A stretch of 64,000 nt of DNA, taken from positions 62,000,001 through 62,064,000 of the forward strand of contig NC_042997.1 of assembly GCF_006345805.1 (NCBI RefSeq), in the 5' to 3' direction. This DNA is from Octopus sinensis. Its lineage: Eukaryota. A program made the position numbers and the translations under genes. The notes under the pieces were generated by a model. The model worked only from the letters and a program-made list of their open reading frames with translations. It did no database searches and had not been told where the DNA came from. Positions 22,771 through 24,866 of the stretch are shown here, piece by piece. How positions within the stretch are numbered: the first letter of the stretch is position 1; the number at the start of each line of letters is the position of its first letter.

Positions 22771-23026
22771 ATATATATATATATATATATATAAATAATA
22801 AAAAATTAGGGAATAAATCCAAACTTACAGGGAAAACTCAGATTTAGGATTAAATCCAATTTTATAGTATAAATATATTATATTATATTATAATAAATTA
22901 GAGATAAAACCACTATTAGGCAAATCAAACAATGAAAAACATAAGCCAATACATAAAATTTATTTAATTTATATTATTTTAAATATATATCAAAAGTATT
23001 AAAAGTTTAATAAAAGATAAAGAGTA

Positions 23027-23123
23027 AAACACTACGATCGTTTCATGGCTGTACAATTCGAATAACAATAATTTCAATTCAATTAATAATTCGAGTTATG
23101 GTTACAGTCAATCTTCAGTTTAA
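23027..23123 (-). ncRNA. Hammerhead-ribozyme-like motif, mirror copy
   Basis: Minus strand CTGAAGA-TTGACTGTA...TACAGCCAT-GAAA-CGATCG-TA. Stem II pairs better than in the right copy; stem I is weak. Confidence 0.55.
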
Positions 23124-24625
23124 TTCAAATATCTAAAAAATAATCAGAAATATTTAAACTATTTTTAAGATGTAAATAATATAATAATTTTACTAATAAT
23201 AAACTCTATTATCAAACTAGAAACATAACTTAACAATTACGATTATATCAAAATCGACTATTATGTTAAATATTAATTTTAATTTATAAGGTAGGAAACC
23301 CACCAATAATCTAATATCGGTATTAATCTATATCTAATTACATAAATATTTAAAAATGACTATTATATATAAATTATCAATGAAAATATATAAATGTATA
23401 TAAATATTATAATTAAGATCTACAATAATCTCTATAAATAAATATATATGCACATATAATAAAAACCTAATAAATTAATTTTTCATATTTAAAGGTGAAA
23501 TAGCTAATTTCAAAATACAAATAAGCAAATTTAAACGAATTTTCGGAAATCTTATGTAAAATACTTATAGAAATAATCAATTCGTAGTAATATAGTATCG
23601 AATAAATACTATAAATACAATTATCAATGGGAATAACTAGCGAATATCAATTCAAAAAAAACAATAACTAAGTTATGCTATTAAATTAGACATGGCCTGG
23701 ACCAATCTTTAGTCAAAAAATATATAAGTTTATCAAAGTGTATCTAATTTAATTATAAGAAATTTAAAACTACAATTAATACTATTAAAACATGTACATA
23801 CAAAAGCCTAACTTTATACACCTCGTATACTTGTTATCAAACAACAAATCTATCGCTAAGTAGTATTTTACGAATAAACTTAAATTTAATATCTAATAAT
23901 ATAGAAAATTACGATAATAAGATCATTACATAAACAACGATATTTACATAAGGAAAATATTATTACACCAAAGACTTATACAATATTAAAATTTACAATT
24001 TGAAGATCTTACATATAAATAAATACTTATCTTAGCGAGGTTTAGTAATGAACTAATAGCATAACTTAGTTATTGTTTTTTTTTAAATTGATATTCGCTA
24101 GTTATTCCCATTGATAATTATATTTATAGTATTTATAGTATTTATTCGATACTATATTACTACGAATTGATTATTTCTATAAGTATTTTTCATAAGATTT
24201 CCGAAAGTTCGTTTAAATTTGTTTATTTGTATTTTGAAATTAGCTATTTCATCTTTAAATATGAAAAATTAATTTATTAGGTTTTTATTATATGTGCATA
24301 TATATTTATTTATAGAGATTATTTTAGATCTTAATTATAATATTTATATACATTTATATATTTTCATTGATAATTTATATATAATAGTCATTTTAAAATA
24401 TTTATGTAATTAGATATAGATTAATACCGATATTAGATTATTGGTGGGTTTCTTACCTTATAAATTAAAATTAATATTTAACATAATAGTCGATTTTGAT
24501 ATAATCATAATTGTTAAGTTATGTTTCTAGTTTGATAATAGAGTTTATTATTAGTAAAATTATTATATTATTTATATCTTGAAAATATTGTTTAAATATT
24601 TCTGATTATTTTTTAGATATTTCAA

Positions 24626-24720
24626 TTAACCTGAAGATTGACTAACCATAACTCGAATTATTAATTGAATTGAAATTATTGTTATTCGAATTGTACAGCC
24701 ATGAAACGATCGTAGTGTTT
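24626..24720 (+). ncRNA. Hammerhead-ribozyme-like motif (type I, minimal palindromic stem III)
   Basis: CTGAAGA (24631) ... long stem II ... GAAA-CGATCG-TA (24703-24714). Stem I is only ~2 bp, and this copy has a 2-nt deletion in stem II. Confidence 0.55.
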
Positions 24721-24866
24721 TACTCTTTATCTTTTATTAAACTTTTAATACTTTTGATATATATTTAAAATAATATAAATTAAATAAATTTTATGTATTG
24801 GCTTATGTTTTTCATTGTTTGATTTGCCTAATAGTGGTTTTATCTCTAATTTATTATTATAATATA

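What the first reader, a model, noticed from the sequence alone, without database searches (positions are those of the whole stretch)
22794..24866. 2.1-kb microsatellite-targeted palindromic element with a hammerhead core on each arm
Seen: ~800-bp inverted arms with scattered substitutions and a 9-bp duplication, a 370-bp spacer, a one-sided ~100-bp tail, (TA)n flanks and no ORF. Each arm has CTGAAGA...GAAA-CGATCG-TA. Known: Penelope-like elements have inverted pseudo-LTRs and minimal hammerheads with palindromic stem III that act as dimers, and some clades target microsatellites. Inference: a non-coding, ribozyme-bearing retroelement family with an unusually long (~65-nt) stem II. One ribozyme copy is sense to the kinase pre-mRNA, so intron self-cleavage could compete with formation of an 800-bp duplex. 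Stem I is weak in both copies, so they may be inactive.
Basis: partly seen in the sequence, partly recalled or inferred. Interest (0 to 1): 0.75.

Follow-up and report, generated by a model that had tools for sequence, protein, structure and literature searches.

The report
Unspliced end of a Penelope retrotransposon
This 2.1-kb mirror repeat in an octopus kinase intron is two head-to-head end pieces of an abundant Penelope-type jumping gene, each with a hammerhead-ribozyme motif that is likely too damaged to cut here; the layout is already known, but the family also left many copies lacking exactly one GT-AG-bounded stretch, likely spliced RNAs copied back into DNA, although such elements are known for keeping their introns.

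Summary
In detail: arms 96% alike, 370-nt spacer, one-sided tail, (TA)n flanks, hammerhead core on each arm. It is not a non-coding palindromic family. It is one insertion of a protein-coding Hydra-clade Penelope-like element (PLE): a 1.26-kb terminal repeat plus tail, joined head to head to a shorter inverted copy. A parent with RT and GIY-YIG domains lies in the same genome. Inverted pairs with other junctions are common, and this layout is published. The hammerhead is real at family level (covarying palindromic stem III; sister subfamilies have compact canonical forms). Stem II is long (65-67 nt), stem I has 2 bp, and each window copy has a private lesion, so cutting of the OSR1 pre-mRNA is unlikely. 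160 exact genomic hits carry the spliced junction; the 17 spliced copies examined all begin near one Inr-like site, where the window copy also begins. The window copy is thus likely a near-complete unspliced terminal repeat. The scan has reported Hydra-PLE fold-backs and spliced pLTR copies on other DNA before.

The parts
22770..22793 (.). (TA)n target, left flank
   Evidence: sequence
22794..24053 (-). Main copy: 1260-nt 3' end (pLTR plus tail) of the Hydra-clade PLE, called q1-1260 from 24053 down; likely a near-complete unspliced terminal repeat
   Evidence: 93% to L064:7936-9179, downstream of an RT + GIY-YIG frame; begins where spliced copies begin
22794..22862 (-). PLE tail between the two clusters of copy 3' ends
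   Evidence: 96 of 100 sampled copies end at q1159-1197 or q1249-1260; followed by the 5' UTR and ATG in tandem copies
22832..22861 (-). Predicted hairpin in the tail, just behind the first end cluster; candidate RT start signal (inferred)
   Evidence: 10-13 bp fold kept in subfamilies with changed sequence, e.g. L086, L088, L089
23029..23122 (-). Hammerhead motif, left arm; core intact, stem II 67 nt, first pair of stem I broken by a private C>A at 23119
23133..24026 (-). 894-nt GT...AG intron of the pLTR, retained in this copy (splicing inferred from genomic copies that lack it)
   Evidence: 160 exact hits of the joined form; coordinates
24027..24049 (-). Short first exon from an Inr-like TCATT (A at 24049), likely transcription start
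   Evidence: 17 of 17 spliced copies begin at q0-17; Inr consensus recalled
23684..24053 (-). 'Spacer': the 5' 370 nt of the main copy, absent from the inverted copy
24054..24866 (+). Inverted, 5'-truncated second copy (from q371), no tail, starts inside the intron
   Evidence: shares rare variants with the left arm
24627..24718 (+). Hammerhead motif, right arm, sense to OSR1; core intact, 2-bp stem I, private 2-nt deletion in stem II; predicted cut after A24714
24867..24917 (.). (TA)n target, right flank
43149..43874 (+). Next mapped downstream exon of the host gene OSR1 kinase; the previous mapped exon lies about 42 kb before the window, so the element is in an intron of about 85 kb
   Evidence: 100% identity to proteins named OSR1; exon map

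Best explanation
The 2.1-kb palindrome is a single insertion of a Hydra-clade Penelope-like retrotransposon into a (TA)n run, made of a 1.26-kb terminal repeat with tail and a shorter inverted copy, both likely copied from one unspliced RNA by the element's own reverse transcriptase, and its two hammerhead motifs are likely inactive here. Shown: parent frame with RT and GIY-YIG motifs, two fixed 3' ends, (TA)n flanks, variable inverted junctions, conserved hammerhead, precise GT-AG loss in other copies. Inferred steps: (1) transcription starts at the Inr-like site q5 in an upstream pLTR and runs through intron, hammerhead and tail into the ORF; (2) the endonuclease nicks both strands of (TA)n; (3) RT starts internally at either end of the tail, as shown in vitro for Poseidon_Ac (PMC11167929); (4) one cDNA ran to the RNA's 5' end (left arm and spacer), the other stopped at q371, and the two were joined head to head over a TTA microhomology; (5) the template was uncut, since both copies span the cut site; (6) each arm later took private mutations. 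In OSR1 pre-mRNA the arms would zip into an ~800-bp duplex that buries the sense ribozyme.
For: Parent: L064 has partial pLTR + tail, a frame with DKT, YRDD, CxCx5C, GIY-YIG, CxxC, CxH, then a 2.4-kb 3' region ending in the window unit at 93%; 152 endonuclease matches listed. Layout: 12 head-to-head pairs among the 94 C1 hits, spacings 90-1666 nt, none in the other orientation; published Penelope-13_HM has the same inverted 5' copy with a hammerhead on both strands. Ends: 96 of 100 in two clusters. One template: both arms share rare variants, e.g. q792 in 1 of 53 and q979 in 2 of 77 other copies. RNA intermediate: 160 and 8 exact hits of two different donors joined to one acceptor, the second also in a compact sister subfamily. 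Hammerhead: palindrome centre AU/UA/CG, stem II AU/GC, stem I GC/AU changes; 84.7% cells paired against 19-54% for slid controls; compact sisters have 4-bp stem I; U.U at the base of stem II is usual in published Hydra hammerheads.
Against: No expression or cleavage data were obtained. No tree with published Hydra references was built; clade placement rests on motifs. Pfam and PDB profiles did not recognise the RT or endonuclease. The parent L064 is broken (a stop and a frame change), and I did not establish a fully intact frame. RWK reads KWK, and the unit is about 4.9 kb against <3 kb for published Hydra elements. The covariation rests on 12 related rows and few events; pairs with a change on both sides did not exceed shuffles (130/500). 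No target-site duplication can be read in (TA)n. 5' ends of copies are enriched just 3' of the cut site, so the family ribozyme may cut some RNAs.
Confidence: 0.88

Rival explanations
1. A dedicated non-coding palindromic element (retrozyme- or MITE-like) that moves as a 2.1-kb unit.
For: No ORF in the window copy; many copies are short and non-coding; spliced ~360-nt copies form a sizeable class.
Against: The unit continues into an RT + GIY-YIG frame in long copies; inverted junctions differ at every locus seen; no second copy with the window's junction among the loci fetched.
Confidence: 0.03
2. The identity is as in the best explanation, but the sense hammerhead cuts the OSR1 intron co-transcriptionally and affects the host transcript.
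For: Core intact and sense to OSR1; PLE hammerheads can be protein-assisted (PMC11167929); D. virilis has a 2-bp helix I variant with low activity in an elongated construct.
Against: Active fold costs 11.7 kcal/mol in a local ViennaRNA model (compact sisters 2.1-9.3); private deletion in stem II; needs a dimer partner; the complementary arm is transcribed first.
Confidence: 0.05
3. The 'spliced' copies come from a genomic deletion in one master copy, not from splicing; the window copy is then just a randomly truncated 3' fragment.
For: An AGATA microhomology lies at both ends and a variant junction fits it (3 copies); all 17 main-junction copies share the 44-nt stem II, so they may descend from few masters.
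Against: The main junction is exactly GT...AG, not the microhomology product; a second near-consensus donor CTG|GTAAGT joins the same acceptor, also in another subfamily; joined copies occur in both TAAC and TTAC variants (8 and 9) and none extends upstream of q0.
Confidence: 0.08
4. Fold-back DNA transposon or organellar insertion.
For: Long inverted arms, 20% GC.
Against: Asymmetric tail, retroelement parent, intron-less copies, two fixed 3' ends.
Confidence: 0.01

Closest known systems
Hydra clade of C-terminal EN+ Penelope-like elements (Craig et al. 2021, PMC8557442; section 11, introduction, passages and supplement part 2 read), including Hydra-1_Obim and Penelope-13_HM
   Same: DKT, CxCx5C, no CCHH, CxxC and CxH in the endonuclease, (TA)n targeting, 3' hammerhead with U.U at the stem II base; Penelope-13_HM has an inverted 5'-truncated copy with a hammerhead on both strands.
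   Different: About 4.9-kb unit with a 2.4-kb 3' region; Asn-rich insert before the endonuclease; KWK for RWK; stem II 44-93 nt against about 11-25 nt in the published Hydra rows; stem I 2 bp against 3-10; not Hydra-1_Obim (2507 bp, other protein and ribozyme, by eye).
Drosophila virilis Penelope (Schostak 2008, PMC2377424, passages; Cervera and de la Pena 2014, PMC4209133, parts 1-2 of 4)
   Same: Start site and an intron inside the pLTR, the intron ending just before the hammerhead; 2-bp helix I, bulged helix II, palindromic helix III.
   Different: Intron 75 nt there, 894 nt here, with a second upstream donor in the 3' UTR; here spliced genomic copies are numerous (16 of 39 sampled sites with a core).
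Poseidon_Ac of Anolis (Frangieh 2024, PMC11167929, main text read)
   Same: Two internal RT start sites bounding the tail, AT-rich targets, uncut RNA as the main template.
   Different: Other clade; its hammerhead overlaps the ORF start, here it lies about 280 nt upstream; here 5' ends are enriched just 3' of the cut site, which was not seen in its RNA reads.
Animal non-LTR retrozymes (bioRxiv 10.64898/2026.07.22.740005, abstract only)
   Same: Non-coding, hammerhead-bearing, related to pLTRs.
   Different: Retrozymes are short tandem units; this copy is a head-to-head pLTR pair with tail that maps onto a coding parent.

Membership tests
Hydra-clade PLE | Single ORF with RT and C-terminal GIY-YIG | tested here: met
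   L064 (broken by a stop and a frame change), L071 748 aa and L072 859 aa open through RT and endonuclease; by motifs and homologues, not by Pfam
Hydra-clade PLE | DKG changed to DKT | tested here: met
   QSDKTRNLY
Hydra-clade PLE | N-terminal RWK motif, no GxKF/Y | tested here: inconclusive
   RIKWKAYY aligns with RWK of homologues, R>K; no GxKF/Y seen in the N-terminal piece
Hydra-clade PLE | CxCx5C linker, no CCHH, CxxC and CxH around E and N | tested here: met
Hydra-clade PLE | (TA)n insertion preference | tested here: met
   74 of 76 tail ends followed by (TA)4 within 30 nt (overlapping loci counted more than once); flanks
Hydra-clade PLE | Length under 3 kb | tested here: not met
   tail-to-tail 4883 nt in L064; about 3.0 kb without the 1.86-kb stretch from the 3' UTR donor to the acceptor; the paper gives the length as 'generally'
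Hydra-clade PLE | RT groups with Hydra references in a tree | not tested
   reference proteins were seen only as text in the supplement
PLE complex insertion | Inverted 5'-truncated copy at the 5' end and one-sided tail | tested here: met
   described in PMC8557442 section 6
Type I hammerhead (PLE type) | Core CUGANGA, GAAA, NUH | tested here: met
   both arms (for the family, for the window)
Type I hammerhead (PLE type) | Palindromic stem III for dimers | tested here: met
   ACGAUCGU; ACGUACGU, ACGCGCGU, ACAAUUGU in sister subfamilies
Type I hammerhead (PLE type) | Stem I of about 4-6 bp | tested here: not met
   2 bp in the family and right arm, 0 in the left arm, 3-4 in sisters; a 2-bp case is published for D. 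virilis
Type I hammerhead (PLE type) | Self-cleavage | not testable with these tools
   needs an in vitro assay
Non-LTR retrozyme | Short non-coding tandem units independent of a coding parent | tested here: not met
   unit is the 3' end of a coding element

The most novel reading that the evidence does not exclude
Splicing gates the ribozyme in this family. Removing the 894-nt intron creates AAGAUAAA, which can pair with UUUAUCUU 11 nt past the cut site and add an 8-bp distal helix to the 2-bp stem I. Spliced RNA would then be cut or would stall RT (giving the excess of 5' ends just 3' of the cut site), while unspliced RNA, which keeps the promoter region, is copied whole. That would be a testable reason why long Penelope copies keep their introns. 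Support is thin: the helix appears in constrained folds of spliced copies only, but the mean energy gain is 1-2 kcal/mol; in the genome-order sample 16 of 27 copies with short stem II are spliced against 0 of 8 with long stem II, and copies are not independent.
Probability: 0.15. Interest if true: 0.75.

Novelty: new variant of a known kind. Interest (0 to 1): 0.4.

Why it matters
The palindrome itself is ordinary for Penelope-like elements. The family is of use for an open question. Craig et al. predicted that other PLEs share Penelope's pLTR start site and intron, and called the significance of intron retention unknown. This family likely shows that layout in the Hydra clade, read from genomic copies alone, and holds spliced and unspliced copies in similar numbers, which argues against an antisense-only template for this family (an option raised in PMC3846280). 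Subfamilies with stem II from 16 to 93 nt give a natural series for testing what a PLE hammerhead needs.

Tried and rejected
Rfam: no hammerhead match on the window or on five sister loci, so Rfam is uninformative here. Pfam and a PDB profile search did not recognise the ORF. Homologue search gave 6 unnamed proteins at 33-44%. Host first guessed as WNK from the OSR1_C domain; WNK motifs were not found in 200 kb of neighbouring DNA and the GTPEFMAPE motif mapped elsewhere; the host is OSR1. A sharp pile of 5' ends exactly at the cut site (4 of 30 loci, query began there) did not hold in the genome-order sample (5 of 99 at q1019-1026); a broader excess remains (33 ends in q1022-1060, hazard 0.0126 per nt, against 0.0023 in q940-1021, p=9e-7, and 0.0041 in q1061-1098, p=2e-4; 96 sites after dropping 4 duplicates; paired copies not independent). 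A pseudoknot between the stem I 5' strand and the stem II insert was considered and dropped: absent in L087 and in the 44-nt form. No RNA holder listed; no reads were laid, so expression, editing and an empty allele stay open. De-duplication failed, so its counts include overlapping loci. Literature: (Penelope-like elements + intronless + spliced + genomic copies) gave 0 papers; two searches listed none on this family by title or abstract; subscription papers and bioRxiv supplements were not searchable, and only part 2 and search hits of 59 parts of the Craig supplement were seen.

Full report
Observation. The arms (22879-23683, 24054-24866) align at 788/817 around a 370-nt spacer, with an 85-nt one-sided end and (TA)n on both sides. 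No frame over 62 aa lies inside. Both arms hold CUGAAGA, a 65-67-nt stem II, GAAA, the palindrome ACGAUCGU and GUA. The 9-bp difference is a deletion in the left arm, since L064 has the longer form. Below, q1-1260 numbers window 24053 down to 22794.

Family and parent. A 22-mer across the core has 1298 exact hits in the genome and its reversed control none. Many copies continue upstream of q1. L064 shows the whole unit: a partial pLTR with tail, an ATG, a frame with RT and GIY-YIG motifs (broken by one stop and one frame change), and a 2.4-kb 3' region that ends in the window unit at 93%. The endonuclease has 152 listed matches down to about 70% identity, and L071 and L072 are open for 748 and 859 codons. 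DKT, CxCx5C, CxxC, CxH and the lack of CCHH are the features given for the Hydra clade (PMC8557442 section 11). RWK reads KWK, there is an Asn-rich insert, and the unit is 4.9 kb. It is not Hydra-1_Obim (by eye). No tree was built.

The palindrome. Among the 94 hits on C1, 12 pairs lie head to head at spacings of 90 to 1666 nt and none in the other orientation. Junctions differ from locus to locus. The published Penelope-13_HM has the same inverted 5' copy and a hammerhead on each strand, and the layout is described as typical. In 100 copies taken in genome order, 56 end at q1159-1197, 40 at q1249-1260 and 4 elsewhere; these two ends bound the tail, as the two internal RT start sites do in Poseidon_Ac. 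The window arms share rare variants, which points to one template. So the palindrome is an integration product, not a family.

The hammerhead. Sister subfamilies carry the motif at the same place. Compact ones have a 4-bp stem I, a 16-19-nt stem II and ACAAUUGU or ACGAUCGU. Long ones have stem II of 44, 67, 72, 76 and 93 nt that fold as hairpins. Across 12 long-form rows the palindrome centre reads AU, UA or CG, one stem II pair AU or GC, and stem I pair 3 GC or AU; 84.7% of cells pair against 19-54% for slid controls, though the number of pairs with two-sided change does not beat shuffles and the rows are related. The U.U at the base of stem II is the usual state in published Hydra hammerheads. 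Stem I is 2 bp in the window's subfamily, as in D. virilis Penelope. The left copy has lost the first stem I pair and the right copy two bases of stem II. A local model puts the active fold 11.7 kcal/mol above the ensemble for the right copy, against 2.1-9.3 for compact forms. Unrelated hammerheads with 53- and 60-nt stem II lie in two fetched loci, so long stem II is not unique to this family.

Host. The exon at 43149-43874 is identical to proteins named OSR1 kinase of Octopus. Mapped exons flank the element about 42 kb before the window and at 43.1 kb, all on +. The right ribozyme is sense to the pre-mRNA, but its complement is made first, so an ~800-bp duplex would likely bury it, and no sense partner for the dimer lies in the element (inference). 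A long duplex might be an A-to-I editing substrate in a cephalopod (own knowledge, untested).

Intron and start site. Many copies join q27 to q922. The missing 894 nt begin with GT (window 24026) and end with TTTTAG (23133), 14 nt before C3. The junction has 160 exact hits. A second donor, CTG|GTAAGT about 210 nt after the stop codon, joins the same acceptor in 8 exact hits and in the compact subfamily (L076; L075 has a similar junction). All 17 first-junction copies examined start at q0-17, around TCATT at q3-7, and the window copy starts at q1. Of 39 genome-order sites with a core, 16 are joined forms, 19 unspliced and 4 unclear. I infer a start site in the pLTR, a short first exon and an intron before the ribozyme, as in D. 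virilis Penelope (75-nt intron) and as predicted for other PLEs. The window copy is then a near-complete unspliced pLTR. A single deletion is the rival; exact GT-AG borders and two donors in two subfamilies speak against it, while the shared 44-nt stem II of the joined copies shows they may stem from few masters.

Does the family ribozyme cut? Copies that span the site were made from uncut RNA. A sharp peak of 5' ends at the cut site did not survive the unbiased sample, but ends are three to five times denser in the 39 nt just 3' of it than on either side. Cutting or RT stalling at the fold could each give this.

Novelty. The layout and clade are known. The long-stem, short-stem-I ribozyme series, the 894-nt pLTR intron and the many spliced genomic copies were not found in the papers read or in searches. 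Earlier notes of this scan report Hydra-PLE fold-backs, long stem II, tail hairpins and spliced pLTR copies on other DNA; they are unchecked notes and were used as leads only. Verdict: new variant of a known kind, interest 0.4.

Noticed in passing
L080:1659 and L077 minus strand position 328: Hammerheads of other families with long stem II (60 and 53 nt) and good stem I (6 and 5 bp); the L080 one occurs twice, on opposite strands.
   Followed up: no
L176-L265 (genome-order sample): 16 of 27 copies with the 44-nt stem II are spliced forms, 0 of 8 with the 67-nt stem II; copies are not independent.
   Followed up: partly
L064 about 4310-4330; L071, L073, L075, L077, L085: A second small hairpin (AUUGAG...CUCAAU) behind the tail end, before the ATG, matching the twin-hairpin idea of earlier scan notes.
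   Followed up: partly
L064:4093-4133; L231: Short pieces of the ORF start are joined to the 5' side of pLTR fragments, suggesting template jumps during insertion.
   Followed up: no
L071, L072 protein, between thumb and endonuclease: Asn-rich insert of about 100 aa, recalling the N-rich inserts of Adineta Penelope elements (PMC3846280, passages).
   Followed up: no
window 21217-22300: Tc1/mariner-like remnant with an internal fold-back centred at about 22062 (perfect hairpin 22030-22095).
   Followed up: no
window 35091-40716: 5.6-kb degenerate (TA/TG)n array inside the same OSR1 intron, next to LINE fragments at 31889-34950.
   Followed up: no
G000:C4:17.47 Mb, C8851, C7757: WNK-type kinase motif and OSR1_C domain hits elsewhere; one gene may be split over unplaced contigs.
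   Followed up: no
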